Of a stretch of DNA of 64,000 nucleotides, positions 9,865 to 23,334 are shown one piece after another. The DNA comes from a bacterium. Its GTDB lineage: Bacteria; Sysuimicrobiota; Sysuimicrobiia; Sysuimicrobiales; Segetimicrobiaceae. Below the pieces are notes generated by a model. The model saw only the letters and a list, made by a program, of their open reading frames with translations. It was not told where the DNA came from and ran no database searches. The stretch lies in contig DATGFS010000048.1 of the NCBI GenBank assembly GCA_035308905.1, forward strand, positions 17,437 to 81,436, in the 5' to 3' direction. The position numbers and the translations under genes were made by a program. The first letter of the stretch is position 1. Each line of letters starts with the position of its first letter.

Positions 9865-10825
9865 GCACTCGCCTCGCGCCGGGACGCAGCCGGGGCAGGA
9901 CGTCGTGCGCGATCACCTCGAGCTGCTCCGGCAGGTACTCGCACGGGATGAGGACGATGTGTTCCTCCCCGGCGCCGAGGTGGGCGGCAAGCTGCTCGGC
10001 GCACTGCTCCGGCGTGCCCCTGATCGCGCTCTCCGGCGTCGACTCGCTCCACGGCGCGACGTCGAAGTACCGGCCGATGAAGTCTTTGACGCGGCGGTCC
10101 GCCTCCTCGTACGAGGCCGCCACGCAGATCGGCAGCTGGCTCACGTTGCGCAGTTCCGCCGGATCGCGTCCCTGCTCCTCGGCGAAGCCGCGGATCTTCG
10201 CCCACGTGGCGCGGAACGTCTCGGCCGTGTAGAAATAGGTCAGCCAGCCGTCGCCGTACTTGGCGACGCGCCGCAGCACCCGGTCGACGTAGCCGCCGAT
10301 GAACAGCGGCGGGTGCGGACGCTGGACGGGCCGGGGCAGCATGACGGCCTGGTTGAACACGTAGCCGTCGACCGCCCCGTTGACGCTGTCCGCGGTCCAC
10401 AGCCGCCGCATGATCTCGAGGTTCTTGACGAAGATCCGCCCGCGCTCCGCAAACGGGATGCCGCACGCTTGAAACTCGCGCTCGTACCAGCCGGCGGCAA
10501 GGCCGAGCACCAGCCGGCCCTTCGAGATCTGGTCCAGACTCGCCAGCTCCTTCGCCAGGATGACGGGGTTACGCAGCGGCAGGACGAGGACGCCGATACC
10601 GAGCCGAAGCCGCTGCGTTCTCGCCGCGATCGCGGTGAGGGTCGCGAGCGACTCGAGAAACGGAAATGCCCGCCGGGTGCCGAGCAGGATATGGTCCCAC
10701 GCCCACGCGGAGACGAAACCGAGCGATTCCGCCGTCGCCGCGTAGGCGAGGATCTTGTCGATGCCCGGCTCGCTGGTCGCGGGCGTGAAGTTCTCCAGCG
10801 CGACCCCGAACTGCGGTTCCGGCAT
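9857..10825 (-). CDS. LLM-class flavin-dependent oxidoreductase
   Basis: GFVSAWAWDH, LTAIAARTQRLRLGIGVLVLPLRNPVILAK, GRLVLGLAAGW, PRPVQRPHPPLFIGG. Confidence 0.9.
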   Translation of the reverse strand: MPEPQFGVALENFTPATSEPGIDKILAYAATAESLGFVSAWAWDHILLGTRRAFPFLESLATLTAIAARTQRLRLGIGVLVLPLRNPVILAKELASLDQISKGRLVLGLAAGWYEREFQACGIPFAERGRIFVKNLEIMRRLWTADSVNGAVDGYVFNQAVMLPRPVQRPHPPLFIGGYVDRVLRRVAKYGDGWLTYFYTAETFRATWAKIRGFAEEQGRDPAELRNVSQLPICVAASYEEADRRVKDFIGRYFDVAPWSESTPESAIRGTPEQCAEQLAAHLGAGEEHIVLIPCEYLPEQLEVIAHDVLPRLRPGARRVHA

Positions 10826-13164
10826 CAGCGTTTCCCTCCCTCGTCCGCGGGAGAACCTTCGGCCGCCTTTGGGCCTCCTGCCGCGGCATCGAGCGCGCGG
10901 ACGATCCGCTCCGGAGTCATCGGCAGCTCCGTGAGCCGCACGCCGGCGGCGTTCTGGATCGCGCTCGCGATCGCGGCCGGCGGCGGGCCGGTGGGCGGCT
11001 CGCCGATCCCGCGCGCCTGGAACGGGCCTTTGCCTTCGCCGGACTCGACGATCACGGCCTGCACGTCCGGCAGGTCGAGGGACGTCGGGATCAGGTAGCC
11101 GGCGAACAACGTGCTGAGGTTGTTGCCGTTCTCGACGACGACCTCCTCCGTCAGCGCCTGGCCGATCCCCATCGCGGCGCCGCCCTGGATCTGGCCCTCG
11201 ACGCTCTGCGGATTGATCGCCTGACCGACGTCGTGGCACGCCGCGTACTTGAGCAGGCGGACCGCGCCGGTCTCGGTGTCCACCTCGACTTCCGCGGCGT
11301 GGCAGCCGTACGTGAAATCCGGGAAGGTGCGTCCCTGGCCGGTCTTGAGGTCCACCGGCGGCGCCTGCTCCGCGTGAAAGGTGGCGAGGTGCGCCGCGGG
11401 GACGCCGCGGCGGCCGCACTCCACGACCATCCGGGCGAGTGAAATCCGCCGCTCCGGGCTGCCCGTGACCCCGACGTGATCATCGGCGAAGTCCAGGTCG
11501 GGCTCCGCGGCCTCGAGCAGTGAGGCGGCGACGGGCGCCACCTGCTCGCGCAATTCGCGCGCCCCGCGGAGCACCGCGTTGCCGGACATGTACAACTGGC
11601 GCGTCGCGAACGTGCCGCCGGAGAGCGGCGTGAGCGCGCTGTCGCCGAAGTGGACCGTGATCCGGTCGAGCGAGACGCCGAGCACCTCGGAGGCGATTTG
11701 CGCGAGGGAGGCCGACTGCCCACCGCCGAGGTCGGGCACGCCGGAGCGGATCACGAGCGAACCGTCCGCTTCGAAGCCGAGCCACGCGCTGGCGCGGTCG
11801 CGAAACCAGACCGTTCGCCCGTACGGCTGGATGTTGCAGGCGAACCCGCGGCCGACCAGGCCCGACGGACCTGACGGCCGGCTGCGCTCGCCGAGCGCGG
11901 CGGTGGCGCGCCGCACGAGCTCGGGCAGCGCGACGTGGGTCTCGACGGCCTCGCCGGTCGGGAGGCGGTCGCCCTTCGCCAGGAAGTTGCGCGCCCGGAT
12001 CTCCTCCGGCGCGAGGCCGAGCCGCTCCGCGAGCGCGTCCATCTGCGATTCGTAGGCGAACGTGACCTGCATCGCGCCGAACCCACGCATCGCGCTCGAC
12101 GGCACGTTGTTGGTGAAGGCCGCCCGGGCGTCGATCGCGACGTTCGGCACTTTGTACGGGCCGCTGCCGGTGACGAGCGCCGCGAACAGCACCCGCGGGC
12201 TGAGCAGGGGGTAGGGGCCGGCGTCGGCGACGAGCGAGATCTCCTGCGCGACGAGGCGGCCGTCGCGTGCGGCGCCCGTCTTGTAGCGCATCGTGAAGGG
12301 ATGCCGCTTCGGCCGGGCGAGCAGCGAGTCGTACCGGCTCCAGACCATGCGCACCGGCTGCCCCGTCTTCCAGGCCAGCAGCGCGAGGTACGGCTCGACG
12401 GTCATGTCCTCTTTGCCGCCGAACCCGCCGCCGAGAAACGGCGTGACGACGCGCACGCGGTTGTGGGGTACGCCGAGCATCTCCGCGATCTCGCGGAAGT
12501 GCTCGATCACCTGCGTCGACGCGCGGATGTTGATGACGCCCTGGGCGTCGGTCCAGGCGACGCCCGCCTCCGGTTCCAGGTAGGCGTGGTCCACGCGCTG
12601 CGTGCGGTACGTCTCTTCGACGACGGCGTGCGCGGCCCGGAAGCCCTCGGCGACGTCACCGCGCCGCAGCGTCCAGTGCACGAGCACGTTGTCCCGGTCG
12701 TCGTGGACGCGCGGCGCGCCGGGCCGGACCGCCTCTTCGGCGTCGAACAGCCCGGGCAGCGGCTCGTACTCGATCTCGATCGCTTCGAGCGCCGCCTGCG
12801 CCCGCGCCGCGGAATCGGCCGCGACGAGCGCCACCGGCTCGCCCTGGAAGCAGACCCGGCCCGCGGCGAGGACCGGCGTGGCGAAGCGGATGAGGCCGAT
12901 GCCGGTGGGATCTTCCTCGACCGCGTTGTGGGGGACGTCGTCCGCGGTCAGCACCACCGCGACGCCCGGGAGGGCCCGGGCGCGCGCCGCGTCGAGCCGG
13001 CGGATCCGCGCCGACGCGTGAAGCGAGCGAAGGACGGCGCCCGCGAGCATGCCGGGCAGCTCCCAGTCCGCCGCGTAGCGGGTAGTCCCGCGGATTTTGT
13101 CGACCGCGTCGAAGCGGGGCTGCGGCCTGCCGACGACCCGGTACGCTATGCGCCGGCGATCCAC
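10825..13164 (-). CDS. Xanthine dehydrogenase family molybdopterin-binding (large) subunit
   Basis: RFDAVDKIRGTTRYAAD, HAYLEPE, GGGFGGK, SAMRGFGA, GGTFATR, DVGQAINP..VEGQIQGG, ARGIGEPP (catalytic Glu); GTG start at 13164 inferred. Confidence 0.92.
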   Translation of the reverse strand: MDRRRIAYRVVGRPQPRFDAVDKIRGTTRYAADWELPGMLAGAVLRSLHASARIRRLDAARARALPGVAVVLTADDVPHNAVEEDPTGIGLIRFATPVLAAGRVCFQGEPVALVAADSAARAQAALEAIEIEYEPLPGLFDAEEAVRPGAPRVHDDRDNVLVHWTLRRGDVAEGFRAAHAVVEETYRTQRVDHAYLEPEAGVAWTDAQGVINIRASTQVIEHFREIAEMLGVPHNRVRVVTPFLGGGFGGKEDMTVEPYLALLAWKTGQPVRMVWSRYDSLLARPKRHPFTMRYKTGAARDGRLVAQEISLVADAGPYPLLSPRVLFAALVTGSGPYKVPNVAIDARAAFTNNVPSSAMRGFGAMQVTFAYESQMDALAERLGLAPEEIRARNFLAKGDRLPTGEAVETHVALPELVRRATAALGERSRPSGPSGLVGRGFACNIQPYGRTVWFRDRASAWLGFEADGSLVIRSGVPDLGGGQSASLAQIASEVLGVSLDRITVHFGDSALTPLSGGTFATRQLYMSGNAVLRGARELREQVAPVAASLLEAAEPDLDFADDHVGVTGSPERRISLARMVVECGRRGVPAAHLATFHAEQAPPVDLKTGQGRTFPDFTYGCHAAEVEVDTETGAVRLLKYAACHDVGQAINPQSVEGQIQGGAAMGIGQALTEEVVVENGNNLSTLFAGYLIPTSLDLPDVQAVIVESGEGKGPFQARGIGEPPTGPPPAAIASAIQNAAGVRLTELPMTPERIVRALDAAAGGPKAAEGSPADEGGKR

Positions 13165-13934
13165 GTTCCGAGAGCCGCGACCTCGACGCCCGCCTGTTCG
13201 AGCATGCCTCGGAGGGTGCGCACCGCCGCGCGTGAGGGCGCGTGATCGCCGTGCAGGCAGATCGTGTCCACCTGCACGTCGACGGTCGTGCCGTCCACGG
13301 TGGGGATGCGTCCGTCCCGCACCGCGGCGACGGCCCGGCGGCACATCGCCTCCGGGTCCATCAGCATCGCGTCGGGACGGCGCCGGCTGGCCAGCGTGCC
13401 GTCCGGCATGTAGGCCCGGTCCAGGAAGAACTCGCGCGCCACCCGAAGGCCGGCGGCCCGGACCTCGGCGGCGAGCCGCGAATGCGGCGTCGCCACGACG
13501 GCGAGGTGCGGATCGATGCGCTTGACCGCTGCGGCGATGGCCTTGGCCGTTCCTTCGTCCACCTCGGCCACATTATAGAGCGCGCCGTGGGGCTTCACGT
13601 GCTGGAGCCGTCCCCCGAAGGCCTCGACCATGCCACGCACCGCGGCGACCTGGTAGAGGACGAGATCGTCCACCTCCTGCGGCGTGAGGTCCATCTTGTG
13701 CCGGCCAAACCCGATGAGATCCTGGTAGCCGGGATGCGCGCCGATCGCCACGCGGTGGCGCCGCAGCAGTTCGACCGTCTTGCGGATCGTCGCCGGGTCG
13801 CTCGCGTGAAAGCCGCACGCGATATGGGCCGACGTGAGGTACGGCGCGATCTCCTCATCCTGGCCCATGGGCCAGCGGCCGAGGGATTCACCCATGTCCG
13901 CGGAGATGTCGACGCGCCGCGACGCCGCTGCCAT
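13146..13934 (-). CDS. pxpA: LamB/YcsF family protein, 5-oxoprolinase subunit A-like
   Basis: DISADMGES, SAHIACGFHA.DP, IGAHPGY.D..GFGR, LQHVKPHGALYN, TICLHGD. Confidence 0.9.
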   Translation of the reverse strand: MAAASRRVDISADMGESLGRWPMGQDEEIAPYLTSAHIACGFHASDPATIRKTVELLRRHRVAIGAHPGYQDLIGFGRHKMDLTPQEVDDLVLYQVAAVRGMVEAFGGRLQHVKPHGALYNVAEVDEGTAKAIAAAVKRIDPHLAVVATPHSRLAAEVRAAGLRVAREFFLDRAYMPDGTLASRRRPDAMLMDPEAMCRRAVAAVRDGRIPTVDGTTVDVQVDTICLHGDHAPSRAAVRTLRGMLEQAGVEVAALGTWIAGA

Positions 13935-15694: not shown

Positions 15695-16354
15695 TCATGC
15701 GTTCACGCGCTCCGCGAGCTCTGCGAGATCGCGCACGATCACGTCCGGCGCGAACCCCAGCCGCTCCGGTGGGGCGCCGGCCCTGTTGACCCAGGCGACC
15801 GGCAGGCCGAAGGCCTTCGCCCCCGCGGCGTCCCACGCGTTCGACGAGACGAAGAGGATCGCCGAGCGCGTGAGCCCGAGCCGGCGTTCGGCGAGGGCGT
15901 ACACGTCGGGGACCGGTTTGTAAGTCTTGACGGCGTCGACGCTGAGGACGTGCGCAAACAATTGACGAAGCTCCGCGGACCGCAGCGCGCTCTCCACCAT
16001 CGACGGGCTGCCGTTGGACAGCACGGCGAGCGTCTTCGGCGCCATGCGCGCGAGGGCGGCGGGGACCTCGGGGTAGGCGCGCAGCGCCAGCCACCCGTCC
16101 AGCATCCGCCGCCGCGCCTCGGGCGCGACGGAGAGGCCGAGCCGCTCGAGCGTGTAGTCGAGGGCCTCAACGGTGACCGTCCAGAAATCTTCGTACCGGC
16201 CCATCGCGGCCCGGAGCCACGTGTACTCGAGCTGCTTCTGCCGCCACGCCGGGACGACGGCCTCGGATCCCGCCGCTTCGACGCAGAGGCGGTCGAGGGA
16301 GCGGACGTCGAGGAGGGTGCCGTAGAGGTCGAAGGCCAGCGCGTCGACGGTCAT
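15695..16354 (-). CDS. Haloacid dehalogenase type II (HAD superfamily)
   Basis: FDLYGTL, WR.KQLEYTW, LSNG, YKP.P.VY, FVSSNAWD..GA. Confidence 0.93.
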   Translation of the reverse strand: MTVDALAFDLYGTLLDVRSLDRLCVEAAGSEAVVPAWRQKQLEYTWLRAAMGRYEDFWTVTVEALDYTLERLGLSVAPEARRRMLDGWLALRAYPEVPAALARMAPKTLAVLSNGSPSMVESALRSAELRQLFAHVLSVDAVKTYKPVPDVYALAERRLGLTRSAILFVSSNAWDAAGAKAFGLPVAWVNRAGAPPERLGFAPDVIVRDLAELAERVNA

Positions 16355-16391: not shown

Positions 16392-16940
16392 CTAGATCTC
16401 GTGCCGGCCGGTCTGCTCGGCCTGTCCGAGGCCCAGCATCTCGACGAGCTTGCCGAAGCCGTCGGCAAGCGCCATGAACGCTCCCAACTCGATCAACTCT
16501 TCCTCGGTGAACTGCGTCTTCCAGCGCCGCAGGTGCTCGTCGCCGATCGCCCGGTAGTCCTCGGTGAACAGCGTCGCCATCTCCAGCGCCGCCCGCTCGC
16601 GTGGCGTGAACACGGGATTCTCCGGATCGGACGTGGCATCGAGTTTCGCCTCGCCGAGGCCCATTTGCTCCGCCACGGCGGAGCGGACGTTGCTTCAATA
16701 ACTGCAGGTGCGCAGGCGCGCCATCCGCACGCGCATCAGTTCCTTGAGCGGATGCTCGACGATGCCGCCGTAGAACGCATCCTGCCATCCCGAGTAGAAC
16801 GCGCGCAGCGCCAGCGGGTGCCTCGCGAGAATGCGCAGGAGCGTGGGGTTCGGCGCCCCGCGCTTCGCCGCGTCGGCGAAGGCCCGCCGGACGTCGTCAG
16901 TCAGCGCGGTCTCGGCAACCGGCCCGATGCGAACCGTCAT
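16392..16940 (-). CDS. AhpD/carboxymuconolactone decarboxylase-like protein, probable selenoprotein (C79-S-Y-U82), 182 aa
   Basis: ORFs 16695..16940 and 16392..16676 share a frame and are separated only by TGA 16697-16695; read-through gives KELMRVRMARLRTCSY(U)SNVRSA...FTPRERAALE...FTEEELIEL, one continuous AhpD-like domain. Confidence 0.85.
16667..16684 (-). promoter_or_regulatory. Putative bacterial SECIS element
   Basis: mRNA UGA-AGCAACGUCC-GCUCCGC-CGUG-GCGGAGC: 7-bp stem starting 10 nt after UGA, with a GU-containing tetraloop 17 nt after UGA. Confidence 0.75.
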
Positions 16941-16966
16941 AGCCGTCCTCCTCGTCCTGCGCTTGT

Positions 16967-17689
16967 TTATGCCACCGTGACGCCGCGCACGCCGTGCTTC
17001 TCGATCAGGCGGGCCACGAGTCCCGAGCCCTTCGCCTCGTCGACGAACGCTCCCAGGAATTCCGCTCCGGCGCCCGCACGCCCGCCCGGCGTACCGATCG
17101 ACTGCTGCACCCCGGTCACGCGGCCGTCCAGCACGCGCGACCCCGGCAGCGCGGCGGCAGCGGCGATGAGGCGCGGCGTAAGACAGGCCAGCGCCTCGAG
17201 CTTTTCCTCTTCGAACAATGCGACCGACGCTTCGATGCCTTCGGCGCGCACGAGCGCCGCGCGTTTGAGGGTGCGGCTGAGGAAGAGGTCATACGCGCTC
17301 TTGCCGGAGACCGCGATGCGGACGCCGTCCCGGTCCACGTCCGCGAGCGTCCGGATCGTCGAGCCGGCAGGCACGAGATACGTGACGGGAATCTCGAGAT
17401 AGGCGGGGCTGAACGCGATCTCCGCGGCCCGCTGCGGCTCGTTGCCGAGGAAGGCGATGTCCCAGCGGTTGTCTCTGGCGCCGTCGGCCAGCGGCCCGGC
17501 CTGGGGAAACCGCACGAATTCCAGCGGCACGCCGAGGCGGCGGCCGATTTCCCGCGCGAGATCGGGCGCGATGCCGCGCGGCTCGCCGGCCGGCCCGTCG
17601 GGCAGCACGAGCAGGAAATTCCCGTCGTTCAGGCCGGTGCGCAGGGTGCCCGACGGCGCGAGCGCCGCGCGGACCTCAGGAATGCCCAA
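16967..17689 (-). CDS. ABC-type solute-binding protein (family 3-like); no signal peptide evident
   Basis: LAPSGTLRTGLN, GIAPDLAREI..RLGVP, WDIAFL...P.RA..IAFSPAY, YDLFLSRTLK. Confidence 0.85.
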   Translation of the reverse strand: MGIPEVRAALAPSGTLRTGLNDGNFLLVLPDGPAGEPRGIAPDLAREIGRRLGVPLEFVRFPQAGPLADGARDNRWDIAFLGNEPQRAAEIAFSPAYLEIPVTYLVPAGSTIRTLADVDRDGVRIAVSGKSAYDLFLSRTLKRAALVRAEGIEASVALFEEEKLEALACLTPRLIAAAAALPGSRVLDGRVTGVQQSIGTPGGRAGAGAEFLGAFVDEAKGSGLVARLIEKHGVRGVTVA

Positions 17690-21675: not shown

Positions 21676-23334
21676 ATGCTGACGGTCAGAGAGGCGCTGG
21701 AGCTCGACGTGCTGCGCGACGTGAAGATCGTCGCCGGTCGTGAGGGCCTCGGCCGGCGGATCCGCTGGTGCCACATCATCGACAATCCCGAGATCGTCCG
21801 CTGGATCCAGGGGGGCGAGCTCCTGCTCACGACCGGCTACGGCTGGCCGGAGACGGAGCAGACGAGCCGCCGGACCATCCGGGCGCTCAACGGCAAGGGG
21901 CTGGCGGCGATTCTCTTCGATCCCGGGCCGTTCCTGGGAGAGATTCCGGTCAACGTCGTCGACGAGGCGGGGCGCCTCGAGCTGCCGGTGCTTGTCGCGC
22001 CGCGGAAGCTGCGGTTCGCCGACGTGACCGAGGCGGTCGGCCGCGAGCTGAGCCGGCGGCAGTACGCGATCATCGAGCGCGCCGACCGGTATCACCGCCA
22101 GATCACCGCCGCGGCCGTGGAGGCGCGCGACCTCAACGACATCGCCCGCACGGTCTGCGGCCTGACGCGCCGGTCCGTGACCATTGAAGACGCGGAGTTC
22201 CGGCCGCTCGCGCGGGCGGACCCGCCGGGGGCGGACTCGCCCGCAACGATGAAATTGCAGCGGGCGGACCCCCCGTCCCCGCGCGACGGGGCGGAGGCGC
22301 GGGCGCTGCGCGAACGGCTCCGGGAGGCCGACGGCGCCGTGCGCCAGGACGGCCGCGTAGCGTGCGCGATCAGGGCGGGCACCGAGCTGCTCGGCTACCT
22401 GTGGATCCTCGAAGGCGACGCGCCCCTCGGCGATCTCGAGCTGCGCGTGGCCGAGCACGGCTCGATGGTCGCGGCGCTGCACATCCTGCGCCAGCGTTCG
22501 CAGGCCGCGGTCGAAGCGAGAATCGGCCACACCGTCGTCGACGCGCTGATTCGCGGCGACGTTCCGGAGGAGGACCTGATCGAGCGGGCGCGTCTGCTCG
22601 GGTTCGACCCGGACGGCGATTACGTGGTCATGATGGTGTCGCTCATGGACCGCGCCGCCCGGGGCCGCAAGTGGCCGCTGACCAGCCGCGACGAGTATTA
22701 TCGGCGCGAGCACGCCGCGCAGGTGCTGCGCCGGCTGCTGGCACAGGACCGGCTTCCGATTCTGTGCACGTACTCGCTCAACCGGATCGTCTGTCTCCTG
22801 TCGGTGAATCGGATGCCGGATGCGCCCGAGTGGCCGCGCCAGTTCGCGCGACGGCTGCACGAGCATCTGGCCGGCGCGGACGGCCTCCCGCCGGTGCTCG
22901 TCACCTTCGGCACCGCGCACGCCGGGCTGTCGGGCGTGTCCAAGGGGTATTGGGAGGCCGACCGGGCGCTCGCCCTCGCCAAGGACTCGGACCGCGTCCT
23001 GTTCTTTGAGGACCTGACACTCGCCCATCTGCTCGCCCAGATCTCGGACACGGACTCGCTGCAGGCGATGTACGCGCGGACGCTCGGGCCGGTGCTCGCC
23101 GGCCCGGGGGGCCGCGTGCTCCGAGAGACGCTGTGGGCGCTCGTCGACGCCGGGTTCAACAAGGAGACCGCGGCGGCGGCGCTCGGCATCCACCGCAACA
23201 CGATGCGCGGACGGCTGGAGCGGGTGCAGGCGCTGCTCTGCCGGCCGCTCGGCGACCCCGACGTTCGCCGCGACCTCGCGGTCATCAAGGAGATCGAACA
23301 TCTCCTGGTCCCCGAACCGCGCCTGACGATCTGA
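21676..23334 (+). CDS. PucR/CdaR family transcriptional regulator
   Basis: N-terminal PucR ligand domain (VAGREGL.R.IRW.H, GGELLLTTG); C-terminal HTH (TAAAALGIHRNTMR.RL). Confidence 0.92.
   Translation: MLTVREALELDVLRDVKIVAGREGLGRRIRWCHIIDNPEIVRWIQGGELLLTTGYGWPETEQTSRRTIRALNGKGLAAILFDPGPFLGEIPVNVVDEAGRLELPVLVAPRKLRFADVTEAVGRELSRRQYAIIERADRYHRQITAAAVEARDLNDIARTVCGLTRRSVTIEDAEFRPLARADPPGADSPATMKLQRADPPSPRDGAEARALRERLREADGAVRQDGRVACAIRAGTELLGYLWILEGDAPLGDLELRVAEHGSMVAALHILRQRSQAAVEARIGHTVVDALIRGDVPEEDLIERARLLGFDPDGDYVVMMVSLMDRAARGRKWPLTSRDEYYRREHAAQVLRRLLAQDRLPILCTYSLNRIVCLLSVNRMPDAPEWPRQFARRLHEHLAGADGLPPVLVTFGTAHAGLSGVSKGYWEADRALALAKDSDRVLFFEDLTLAHLLAQISDTDSLQAMYARTLGPVLAGPGGRVLRETLWALVDAGFNKETAAAALGIHRNTMRGRLERVQALLCRPLGDPDVRRDLAVIKEIEHLLVPEPRLTI

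What the first reader, a model, noticed from the sequence alone, without database searches (positions are those of the whole stretch)
16392..16940. Hidden selenoprotein: AhpD-like CxxU gene split by the ORF caller at an in-frame UGA
Seen: the 81-aa ORF ends ...RLRTCSY-TGA, and the same frame continues SNVRSAVAEQMG... for 100 codons to the real stop. Joined, the halves form one 182-aa AhpD/CMD-like domain. The TGA sits exactly where the second Cys of the AhpD CxxC lies. A 7-bp hairpin GCUCCGC-CGUG-GCGGAGC begins 10 nt after the UGA, with a GU-containing loop 17 nt away. Known: bacterial SECIS elements lie directly 3' of UGA with an apical G(U), and AhpD-like selenoproteins have been described. 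Inference: Sec is inserted, this organism has the Sel machinery, and standard annotation will miscall the gene as two fragments or a pseudogene.
Basis: partly seen in the sequence, partly recalled or inferred. Interest (0 to 1): 0.85.

Follow-up and report, generated by a model that had tools for sequence, protein, structure and literature searches.

The report
AhpD-like selenoprotein gene split by annotation
A small redox-enzyme gene of an uncultured soil bacterium almost certainly reads an internal "stop" codon (UGA) as selenocysteine; this kind of selenoprotein has been known since 2005, so the call is correct but ordinary, and public annotation still cuts the gene short.

Summary
On the minus strand, 16940..16392 is one 182-codon AhpD/CMD-fold gene. 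It has a single in-frame TGA (16697..16695) in the motif C-S-Y-U, at the second Cys of the family's CxxC.

- **Conservation of the TGA:** 37 homologues of 52-90% identity, from at least four phyla, all carry TGA at this codon. The nearest Cys forms are only 37-43% identical. Among the 79 metagenome loci that cover the codon, 52 have TGA, 27 have TGC/TGT and none has another residue.
- **Selection:** dN/dS after the TGA (0.08-0.29) matches that before it (0.09-0.33).
- **Hairpin:** every Sec form has a 5-9 bp hairpin whose G-containing loop starts 17-20 nt after UGA. It shows compensatory changes (8 of 8 pairs) and suppressed synonymous variation. The Cys forms checked lack it.
- **Not an error or a changed code:** TGA is unchanged in four DNA metagenome assemblies and two metatranscriptome assemblies, and it is the commonest normal stop codon in the window.

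The window holds none of these genes.

Verdict: a real selenoprotein gene and a new member of the known AhpD-like CxxU kind. Public gene calls cut it to an 81-residue 'hypothetical protein'. Interest is low to moderate.

The parts
16392..16940 (-). Complete 182-codon AhpD/CMD-fold selenoprotein gene: ATG at 16940..16938, Sec codon 82, TAG stop at 16394..16392.
   Evidence: sequence and translation; PF02627 across the TGA; AlphaFold2 pLDDT 85.7, TM 0.80 to 2prr; dN/dS 0.08-0.33 in both halves.
16695..16697 (-). In-frame UGA, codon 82, read as selenocysteine (inferred). It takes the place of the second Cys of CxxC.
   Evidence: TGA stands at the same codon in L001-L017 and L020-L041. It is unchanged in the contigs of runs X1, X2, X3, X5, X23 and X24.
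16704..16706 (-). Codon 79, TGC: the first Cys of the C-x-Y-U motif, the presumed partner that forms the selenenylsulfide.
   Evidence: It is invariant in alignments A1 and A5. The strain variant G>A at 16704 is the synonymous change TGC>TGT.
16667..16684 (-). SECIS-like hairpin GCUCCGC-CGUG-GCGGAGC: 7 bp, with loop CGUG at 16677..16674. The stem starts 10 nt and the loop 17 nt after UGA. It is encoded by codons 86-92 (R-S-A-V-A-E-Q).
   Evidence: the nucleotides are nearly invariant in 15 clade members; lowest synonymous diversity in the gene, and the only two variable synonymous sites covary; covariation in the equivalent hairpin of 25 other Sec forms.
16946..16953 (-). Shine-Dalgarno-like GAGGAGGA, 5 nt upstream of the ATG.
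   Evidence: Read directly from the sequence (+ strand tcctcctc at 16946..16953).
16967..17689 (-). Upstream gene on the same strand, 26 nt away: a 240-aa SBP_bac_3-like protein. It is the conserved partner in the window's clade.
   Evidence: PF00497, 43.1 bits; a homologue lies directly upstream in WIN, L004, L005, L020 and L022.
15695..16354 (-). Downstream gene on the same strand, 37 nt after the TAG: a HAD-family hydrolase, probably in the same operon.
   Evidence: PF00702, 86.8 bits; conserved downstream in WIN, L004 and L020.

Best explanation
16940..16392 (minus strand) is one intact gene for a 182-residue thiol/selenol oxidoreductase with the AhpD/carboxymuconolactone-decarboxylase fold. 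Its active-site motif is Cys79-Ser-Tyr-Sec82.

**Proposed mechanism.** The UGA at codon 82 is recoded as selenocysteine by the standard bacterial route. A hairpin in the mRNA sits 10-28 nt after the UGA, within codons 86-92. [quoted passage not shown] SelB then delivers Sec-tRNA(Sec) to the ribosome in competition with release factor 2. In the protein, the selenolate of Sec82 would be the attacking nucleophile on a peroxide, disulfide or other electrophilic substrate, and Cys79 would resolve the intermediate as a selenenylsulfide.

**Shown here:**
- the gene structure and the fold;
- the Sec/Cys pairing at codon 82;
- conservation of the TGA;
- purifying selection downstream of the TGA;
- conservation and covariation of the hairpin;
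- a genome-wide code change excluded;
- a sequencing or assembly error made very unlikely;
- truncation of the gene in public annotation.

**Inferred, not shown:**
- that SelA, SelB, SelC and SelD exist in this genome;
- that selenium is actually incorporated;
- the catalytic roles of U82 and C79;
- the physiological substrate.
For: 1. **Sec/Cys pair.** TGA stands at the same codon in 16 homologues from genome and ENA/JGI contigs: candidate phylum ANGP1, high-GC Bacillota MAGs, Acidobacteriota, Acidimicrobiia, Nitriliruptorales and Thermoflexus. It also stands there in the 21 close metagenome homologues that cover the codon (54-90% identity). Cys forms exist at 37-43% identity: P0005 with CGYC, and L042/L060. 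Of the 79 metagenome loci covering the site, 52 have TGA, 27 have TGC/TGT and 0 have another residue.
2. **Translation continues past the TGA.** Against ten homologues, dN/dS for codons 83-182 is 0.08-0.29, compared with 0.09-0.33 for codons 1-81. Strain variants fall mostly at third codon positions on both sides of the TGA.
3. **SECIS hairpin.**
 - All but one of the Sec-form sequences examined has a 5-9 bp hairpin with loop CGUG or GGY starting 17-20 nt after UGA. One more has the same stem one base pair short. Four Cys forms do not have it.
 - In 25 Sec forms with different stem sequences, 91% of cells are paired, against 26-60% in the slid controls. All 8 pairs show compensatory changes, and 0 of 500 shuffles reach this. 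The two loop Gs are invariant.
 - In the window's clade, codons 86-92 have the lowest synonymous diversity in the gene (0.27 against 1.02 bits). The only variable synonymous sites covary: Ser87 TCC/TCT with Ala90 GCG/GCA.
 - The local folding energy of Sec forms averages -12.3 kcal/mol, against -8.3 for Cys forms at equal GC (Mann-Whitney p = 2e-6). P0005 encodes the same S-N-V-R-S peptide without the hairpin.
4. **Not an error and not a changed code.**
 - TGA is unchanged in Logan contigs of four DNA metagenomes from four studies.
 - It is also unchanged in two metatranscriptome contigs that span the whole gene.
 - TGA ends 24 of 50 composition-supported ORFs in the window.
5. **Fold.** PF02627 matches above its cut-off. 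The AlphaFold2 model has pLDDT 85.7 and pTM 0.83. TM is 0.80 to the AhpD-like structures 2prr and 6k40. In the PA0269 alignment, CSYU lies on CAYC.
6. **The kind is established.** AhpD-like (COG2128, CxxU) and CMD-domain (PF02627, CxxU) selenoproteins are listed in PMC1088965, PMC2398784, PMC9312934 and PMC13188914. The Sec-decoding trait is reported in Firmicutes/Clostridia, Actinobacteria, Chloroflexi and Acidobacteria (PMC1794560).
Against:
 - The window has no tRNA gene and no Rfam match.
 - tblastn with E. coli SelA, SelB and SelD found nothing in the window or in about 500 kb of related loci. The one exception is an EF-Tu-like GTPase match next to tRNA-Thr in L017.
 - This is weak evidence against, since sel genes need not be linked to selenoprotein genes.
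- **Single-sequence hairpin unremarkable.** Its folding energy is ordinary for this GC content (z = -1.1).
- **No Rfam family matches the hairpin**.
- **Contigs, not reads.** The read evidence consists of assembler contigs, which drop rare variants.
- **Non-independence.** The covariation counts and the Sec-versus-Cys energy test treat related sequences as independent.
- **No direct evidence for selenium in the protein.**
Confidence: 0.9

Rival explanations
1. The UGA is read through, but not as selenocysteine. A near-cognate or suppressor tRNA would insert Trp, Cys, Gly or Arg. The hairpin would act only as a generic read-through stimulator or ribosome pause site.
For: The Sec machinery was not demonstrated in this genome. 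The downstream frame is clearly translated, and any read-through mechanism would explain that.
Against: - The codon sits exactly at a catalytic Cys position, and Cys is the only alternative residue among 79 relatives. That is the signature of Sec/Cys exchange.
- The hairpin has the geometry of bacterial SECIS elements: it lies directly 3' of the UGA and has a small apical loop with conserved G (PMC1088965).
- TGA is a frequent normal stop in the window, and no other gene there has an in-frame TGA.
- The phyla that carry the gene are known Sec decoders (PMC1794560).
Confidence: 0.04
2. The UGA terminates translation. The cell would make an 81-residue N-terminal fragment and perhaps a separate C-terminal polypeptide from an internal start (GTG at codon 89 or ATG at codon 93). 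The two might assemble into a split AhpD-like protein.
For: Gene callers produce exactly these pieces. A GTG (16676) and an ATG lie shortly after the TGA in the window.
Against: - Codons 83-88, between the TGA and any internal start, are among the most conserved in the family (V85, R86 and S87 are invariant). They would not be translated under this model.
- The internal Met/Val is not conserved in the acidobacterial or Thermoflexus homologues.
- A split protein would lack the residue at the second catalytic position.
- A single compact fold is predicted across the junction.
Confidence: 0.03
3. The gene is a pseudogene, or the TGA is a sequencing or assembly error (TGC>TGA).
For: A single in-frame stop in a MAG is often an artefact.
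Against: - The same TGA is present in six independent public assemblies of near-identical strains.
- It is present in all 37 close homologues across at least four phyla.
- The region downstream has dN/dS 0.08-0.29.
Confidence: 0.01

Closest known systems
AhpD-like (COG2128/YciW, TIGR01926 'peroxidase-related enzyme') and CMD-domain (PF02627) CxxU selenoproteins, predicted from Sargasso Sea and GOS metagenomes and some genomes (Zhang, Fomenko & Gladyshev 2005, PMC1088965; Zhang & Gladyshev 2008, PMC2398784; reviews PMC9312934, PMC13188914)
   Same: - Same fold superfamily.
- Same CxxU motif, with Sec at the second Cys position.
- A bacterial SECIS-type hairpin directly after the UGA, with G in the apical loop.
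- Cys-containing homologues exist.
- The function is unknown but presumed to be redox.
   Different: - The window protein scores below the curated cut-offs of the specific models: TIGR01926 37.2 against 81.8 bits, and NF053654 72.7 against 310 bits. It is therefore a separate subfamily inside the superfamily.
- All 37 members found at 52% identity or more have Sec.
- It comes from soil, groundwater and sediment bacteria of high GC content (ANGP1/Bacillota-like, Acidobacteriota, Actinomycetota, Chloroflexota), not from marine plankton.
- The motif is C-x-Y-U followed by x-x-V-R-S.
NCBIfam NF053654 'GroundWater_YciW: YciW-related (seleno)protein'
   Same: It is the best-scoring curated family. 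The match runs nearly end to end (residues 4-164 on model positions 3-164 of 179) at E = 3e-20. It is also a family with a Sec or Cys active site.
   Different: The score of 72.7 bits is far below the equivalog cut-off of 310. The window protein is a homologue, not a member.
Pseudomonas aeruginosa PA0269 (PDB 2o4d, 2ijc, 7xw1) and the other solved single-domain AhpD-like 'peroxidase-related' proteins (2prr, 2gmy, 3c1l, 6k40)
   Same: - They are the closest solved relatives by sequence (E = 1.4e-9) and by fold (TM 0.65-0.80).
- The CxxC motif lies at the same place.
   Different: - These proteins use Cys at both positions.
- They are only 17-28% identical to the window protein over the aligned part (Foldseek %id).
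Mycobacterium tuberculosis AhpD (PDB 1gu9), the AhpC-reducing alkylhydroperoxidase
   Same: It is the founding member of the fold and has a CxxC active site. From memory, the second Cys (Cys133) is the reactive nucleophile, which would fit Sec at that position here.
   Different: - The structural match is only distant (TMq 0.36-0.41, E > 1).
- No ahpC, or lipoamide-system gene was identified among the ten neighbouring genes I scanned.
- There is no evidence that the window protein serves a peroxiredoxin.
Bmp8, the thiol-dependent debrominase of the AhpD fold (PDB 6ohi, 6ohj)
   Same: It is as good a structural match as the peroxidase-related proteins (TM 0.80-0.81). This shows that the fold supports reductive chemistry other than peroxide reduction.
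   Different: It is 17-18% identical and Cys-based. Its gene context is different (a bromopyrrole biosynthesis cluster, from memory). Nothing links the window gene to halogenated substrates except a neighbouring HAD-family hydrolase, which is a weak cue.

Membership tests
Bacterial selenoprotein decoded by SelB/SECIS | An in-frame UGA that aligns with Cys in homologues (a Sec/Cys pair). | tested here: met
   P0005, L042 and L060 have Cys. Of 79 metagenome loci, 52 have TGA, 27 have Cys and 0 have another residue.
Bacterial selenoprotein decoded by SelB/SECIS | The reading frame is conserved and under purifying selection on both sides of the UGA. | tested here: met
   dN/dS is 0.09-0.33 upstream and 0.08-0.29 downstream; the frame is intact in all homologues.
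Bacterial selenoprotein decoded by SelB/SECIS | A stem-loop immediately 3' of the UGA with a small apical loop containing G (bacterial SECIS; PMC1088965, PMC9312934). | tested here: met
   The loop starts 17-20 nt after UGA. The loop G is conserved (invariant in the 25-sequence GGY alignment). Compensatory changes are present. The hairpin is absent from the Cys forms checked.
Bacterial selenoprotein decoded by SelB/SECIS | selA, selB, selC (tRNA-Sec) and selD are present in the same genome. | not testable with these tools
None of these genes lies in the 64-kb window.
Bacterial selenoprotein decoded by SelB/SECIS | Selenium is incorporated at the UGA position (75Se labelling or mass spectrometry). 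| not testable with these tools
   This needs an experiment.
AhpD/CMD superfamily (Pfam PF02627) | A match to the CMD profile above the gathering score. | tested here: met
   33.1 bits against a cut-off of 23, over residues 42-123.
AhpD/CMD superfamily (Pfam PF02627) | The all-helical AhpD fold, with the CxxC-type motif at the conserved site. | tested here: met
   (pLDDT 85.7, all helices). (TM 0.80 to 2prr and 6k40). (CSYU aligned to CAYC of PA0269).
TIGR01926 'peroxidase-related enzyme' (the model cited for the AhpD-like selenoprotein family in PMC13188914) | A score at or above the curated cut-off of 81.8 bits. | tested here: not met
   37.2 bits. The protein is related to this subfamily but is not a member as defined.
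NF053654 GroundWater_YciW (seleno)protein | A score at or above the curated cut-off of 310 bits. | tested here: not met
   72.7 bits.
AhpC-coupled AhpD (M. tuberculosis type) | Genomic or functional coupling to a peroxiredoxin (ahpC) and close structural similarity to 1gu9. | tested here: not met
   the neighbours are an SBP_bac_3 protein, an SDR, a MOSC protein, a HAD hydrolase and a cysteine synthase (PALP domain; named); there is no peroxiredoxin among them. TMq 0.36-0.41 to 1gu9, 1lw1 and 1me5.

The most novel reading that the evidence does not exclude
The 182-residue C-x-Y-U...V-R-S clade may be a distinct subfamily that always uses Sec, shared by soil and subsurface bacteria of at least four phyla. 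Every one of its 37 members found here has Sec, and it has no curated model.

Its job may not be peroxide defence. It may instead be a selenol-dependent reductive step in the breakdown or uptake of nitrogen-containing compounds. The gene directly upstream is repeatedly one of the following:
- a creatinase/prolidase-like M24 enzyme;
- an amidohydrolase;
- an isochorismatase-like hydrolase;
- an S15 hydrolase;
- a xanthine/uracil permease;
- a solute-binding-like protein.

The fold also matches the reductive debrominase Bmp8 as well as it matches the peroxidase-related proteins.
Probability: 0.12. Interest if true: 0.5.

Novelty: new member of a known kind. Interest (0 to 1): 0.27.

Why it matters
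**Annotation.** In the public gene calls I could see, this gene is truncated at the TGA. The 90% cluster of the N-terminal fragment has 26 members, and all 15 listed are 81 aa. GenBank relatives call it a 'hypothetical protein'. One caller read the UGA as Trp. No curated NCBIfam model reaches its cut-off for the subfamily, so automated pipelines will keep missing it.

**Biology.**
- It extends the AhpD-like selenoproteins, mostly described from marine plankton, to little-studied high-GC soil, groundwater and sediment lineages.
- It implies that those lineages, including candidate phylum ANGP1, decode Sec.
- It offers a clean natural series of SECIS hairpins in two registers for studying what SelB requires.

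None of this changes what is known about the mechanism. The value is a correct call and a well-documented subfamily, not a discovery of kind.

Tried and rejected
2. **Walking along the window's own 263,643-bp contig.** The look-up of encoding contigs returned only a 2-kb JGI contig for a window protein.
3. **tblastn with genuine E. coli K-12 SelA, SelB and SelD** (fetched) against the window and all loci. The only hit was an EF-Tu-like GTPase beside tRNA-Thr in L017. No tRNA-Sec lies in the window or in 17 loci.
4. **Searching the 5.8-billion-protein collection with E. coli SelA or SelD** to find the machinery of relatives. I considered this and did not run it. The hits would rank by likeness to E. 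coli and could not be tied to this genome, so the cost was not justified.
5. **Rfam.** There was no match at gathering score in the window and only chance-level matches over the hairpin. Bacterial SECIS elements are too varied for these models.
6. **Other selenoprotein genes.** None turned up in the window or in the flanks of related loci. The other same-frame TGA junctions look like ordinary adjacent genes.
7. **One common hairpin structure for all homologues.** Rejected, because the stem sits in at least two registers. I therefore counted covariation separately for each register.
8. **A TGA code change.** Rejected.
9. **Conserved synteny across phyla.** Not found. Only the window's own clade keeps the SBP-like, selenoprotein and HAD gene order.

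Full report
**Observation**

The feature lies on the minus strand. The ORF at 16940..16695 encodes 81 residues ending ...RLRTCSY, followed by TGA at 16697..16695. The same frame then runs SNVRSAVAEQMG... for exactly 100 more codons to TAG at 16394..16392.

- Read through, the product is 182 residues.
- A GAGGAGGA Shine-Dalgarno-like sequence lies 5 nt before the ATG.
- The Pfam CMD/AhpD domain PF02627 matches residues 42-123, straight across the TGA, above its gathering score.
- In the alignment to the solved AhpD-like protein PA0269, C79-S-Y-U82 lies on C-A-Y-C.
- The hairpin GCUCCGC-CGUG-GCGGAGC is at 16684..16667. It begins 10 nt after the UGA and its loop begins 17 nt after it.

Taken alone, the hairpin is not unusual for a 69% GC sequence: the z-score is -1.1. 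The case therefore rests on comparison with relatives.

**Homologues**

A search of the large protein collection returned pieces that stop or start at exactly this point. It also returned one 182-aa protein with 'W' at the position, and one Cys form, P0005, with CGYC.

- The DNA shows that the 'W' is a TGA that the gene caller read as Trp.
- The truncated proteins are followed by an open, conserved frame.
- The 90% cluster of the window's own 81-aa fragment has 26 members. All 15 listed are 81 aa, named 'hypothetical protein' or 'alkylhydroperoxidase family enzyme'. The predicted mis-annotation is therefore real in the public gene calls I could see.

A scan of species-representative genomes found 14 orthologous loci that cover the codon (55-88% identity). 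They come from MAGs labelled ANGP1 ('Bacillati bacterium'), Firmicutes/Bacillota, Acidobacteriota, Acidimicrobiia, Nitriliruptorales and Candidatus Thermoflexus. Every one has TGA at the same codon, in the motif C-x-Y-U.

A metagenome scan added 80 loci, 79 of which cover the codon.

- All 21 close homologues (54-90% identity) that cover the codon have TGA.
- Remoter subfamilies carry either TGA (CHYU, CQLU and others) or Cys.
- Overall, 52 have TGA, 27 have TGC/TGT and none has another residue.
- One of the two search patterns did not include the codon, so the scan could find either form.

**Is the TGA translated?**

Against ten homologues of equal length, dN/dS for codons 83-182 is 0.08-0.29. 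For codons 1-81 it is 0.09-0.33. In both cases dS is 0.5-1.7. The part after the 'stop' is thus held as protein-coding, in frame, to the same degree as the part before it.

TGA is not reassigned in this genome. It ends 24 of 50 composition-supported ORFs in the window, and no other credible in-frame TGA exists there.

The TGA is not an assembly error.

- Logan contigs from four DNA metagenomes of four different studies cover the site. Strain variants occur elsewhere, mostly at third codon positions, but none at 16695..16697.
- Contigs from two metatranscriptome runs of one study (groundwater and sediment samples), from a strain about 97% identical, span the whole gene across the unchanged TGA.

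**The hairpin**

In all but one of the Sec-form sequences examined, a 5-9 bp hairpin follows the UGA, and its apical loop starts 17-20 nt after the UGA. One further sequence has the same stem one base pair short. The loop is CGUG in the window's clade and GGY in most others. The stem sequences differ completely between subfamilies, and the helix sits in at least two registers.

For 25 Sec forms with the GGY loop:

| Measure | Result |
|---|---|
| Cells forming standard pairs | 91% |
| Same measure when partners are slid | 26-60% |
| Pairs with compensatory double changes | 8 of 8 |
| Shuffles reaching the observed values | 0 of 500 |
| The two loop Gs | invariant |

In the window's clade the 19 nt of the hairpin are almost invariant, although synonymous sites elsewhere are near saturation. 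Codons 86-92 have the lowest synonymous diversity of any 7-codon window in the gene, 0.27 against 1.02 bits. The only two synonymous sites that vary are Ser87 TCC/TCT and Ala90 GCG/GCA. They pair with each other and change together in L001, L003 and L008.

Cys forms lack the structure. P0005 encodes the same S-N-V-R-S peptide with different codons and has no hairpin at this position. The local folding energy averages -12.3 kcal/mol in 50 Sec forms and -8.3 in 24 Cys forms at equal GC content. Relatedness inflates both statistics, but the pattern is the classical one for a bacterial SECIS. Such an element lies directly 3' of the UGA and has a small apical loop containing G (PMC1088965, PMC9312934).

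**Fold and likely chemistry**

An AlphaFold2 model built from 24 homologues is confident (pLDDT 85.7, pTM 0.83) and all-helical.

- It matches the single-domain AhpD-like 'peroxidase-related' structures 2prr, 6k40 and 2pfx at TM 0.78-0.82, normalised either way.
- It matches PA0269 at TM 0.82-0.86, normalised to the shorter target.
- It matches the AhpD-fold debrominase Bmp8 equally well, at TM 0.80-0.81.
- M. tuberculosis AhpD itself is only a distant match.

I infer a thiol/selenol oxidoreductase in which Sec82 is the nucleophile and Cys79 resolves the intermediate. The assignment of roles rests on my recollection of the M. tuberculosis AhpD mechanism and was not tested here. The substrate is unknown.

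**Context**

The gene sits on one strand between an SBP_bac_3-like gene, 26 nt upstream, and a HAD-family hydrolase gene, 37 nt downstream. This order is kept only in the window's own clade. In other phyla the gene directly upstream differs, but it is repeatedly a hydrolase or transporter gene:

- M24 creatinase-like enzyme;
- amidohydrolase;
- isochorismatase;
- S15 hydrolase;
- xanthine/uracil permease.

No peroxiredoxin is adjacent.

**What could not be done**

- The 64-kb window has no tRNA gene, no Rfam match and no homologue of E. coli SelA, SelB or SelD.
- The roughly 500 kb of related loci have none either.
- This says little, because sel genes need not be linked to selenoprotein genes.
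- The phyla that carry the gene are reported Sec decoders (PMC1794560).

**Comparison with what is known, and verdict**

AhpD-like (COG2128/YciW, CxxU) and CMD-domain (PF02627, CxxU) selenoproteins were described from the Sargasso Sea in 2005. They rank among the most abundant selenoprotein families in the GOS data and appear in current reviews and catalogues (PMC1088965, PMC2398784, PMC9312934, PMC13188914).

The window protein belongs to this kind but not to any curated equivalog. It scores 37.2 bits against TIGR01926 (cut-off 81.8) and 72.7 bits against NF053654 (cut-off 310). Earlier notes of this scan report many similar cases in other genomes. They agree with this reading but are not independent evidence.

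I conclude with about 0.9 confidence that this is a genuine selenoprotein gene. It is a new member, and arguably a well-defined Sec-only subfamily, of a known kind. It matters mainly as an annotation correction and as a sign that these soil lineages use selenocysteine.

Noticed in passing
C-terminus of the protein: window 16392-16420 (-); homologues L001, L006-L008, L010-L015: Most homologues end ...Q-x-C-x-x-E-[I/L]-stop, for example QHCEYEI, QTCTFEI, QVCKFEI and QSCQVEI. The window's own clade has Gly or Ser at that position (QTGRHEI, QTSRREI). This would be a third, tail-borne Cys on a low-confidence C-terminal tail (pLDDT below 50). It may be a relay or resolving residue that this clade has lost.
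   Followed up: partly
16-37 nt after the UGA in window, L001-L017 and L020-L081: The SECIS hairpin occurs in at least two registers.
- In the window's clade the loop is CGUG and starts 17 nt after UGA.
- In Acidobacteriota, Thermoflexus and the remoter CHYU/CQLU subfamilies the loop is GGY and starts 20 nt after UGA.
- L012, L014, L030 and L031 are intermediate.

The helix has moved along the mRNA while a G about 21 nt after the UGA is kept in nearly all.
   Followed up: partly
Genes directly upstream of the selenoprotein gene in L011, L012, L013, L015, L016, L027, L033, L035; also L103 (Cys form): The neighbour changes with phylum but is repeatedly a hydrolase or transporter gene:
- Peptidase_M24/creatinase-like (L015, L033, L035, and beside the Cys form in L103);
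- Amidohydro_1 (L027);
- isochorismatase (L016);
- S15 hydrolase (L012);
- xanthine/uracil permease (L011; the homologous upstream gene in L013 was not scanned).

This may be a functional link or just chance.
   Followed up: partly
window 16967-17689 (-): The 240-aa SBP_bac_3-like protein directly upstream is the one neighbour conserved throughout the window's clade (WIN, L004, L005, L020, L022). By eye, its N-terminus (MGIPEVRAALAPSG...) does not look like a signal peptide, so it may be a cytoplasmic protein with a solute-binding fold. The signal peptide was not tested.
   Followed up: no
L001:1-15039 and L006:9632-9717: The copy in L001/L006 (identical proteins) lies right after a tRNA-Leu gene (seen in L006). 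In L001 it sits among resolvase, terminase, IS110/ISL3 transposase and reverse-transcriptase genes. In that lineage the gene therefore borders or rides on a mobile region.
   Followed up: no
L072:1651, L080:1735, L081:1735: Some remote Sec-containing CMD-family genes lack the first Cys of the motif (S-P-F-U and V-A-Y-U). They would be single-selenol forms without a resolving Cys three residues upstream.
   Followed up: no
window 10825-13344 (-), 13146-13934 (-), 21676-23334 (+): The neighbourhood holds three notable genes: a xanthine-dehydrogenase-family molybdopterin enzyme, a LamB/YcsF (5-oxoprolinase-type) gene and a PucR-family regulator. From memory, some molybdenum hydroxylases of this family use a labile selenium cofactor. 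That would also need SelD. I did not examine this further.
   Followed up: no
window 16425-16434 and 16704-16710: Strain variants in public metagenomes and metatranscriptomes fall in runs spaced 3 nt apart, at third codon positions, on both sides of the TGA. This is population-level evidence that the whole 182-codon frame is under selection.
   Followed up: yes
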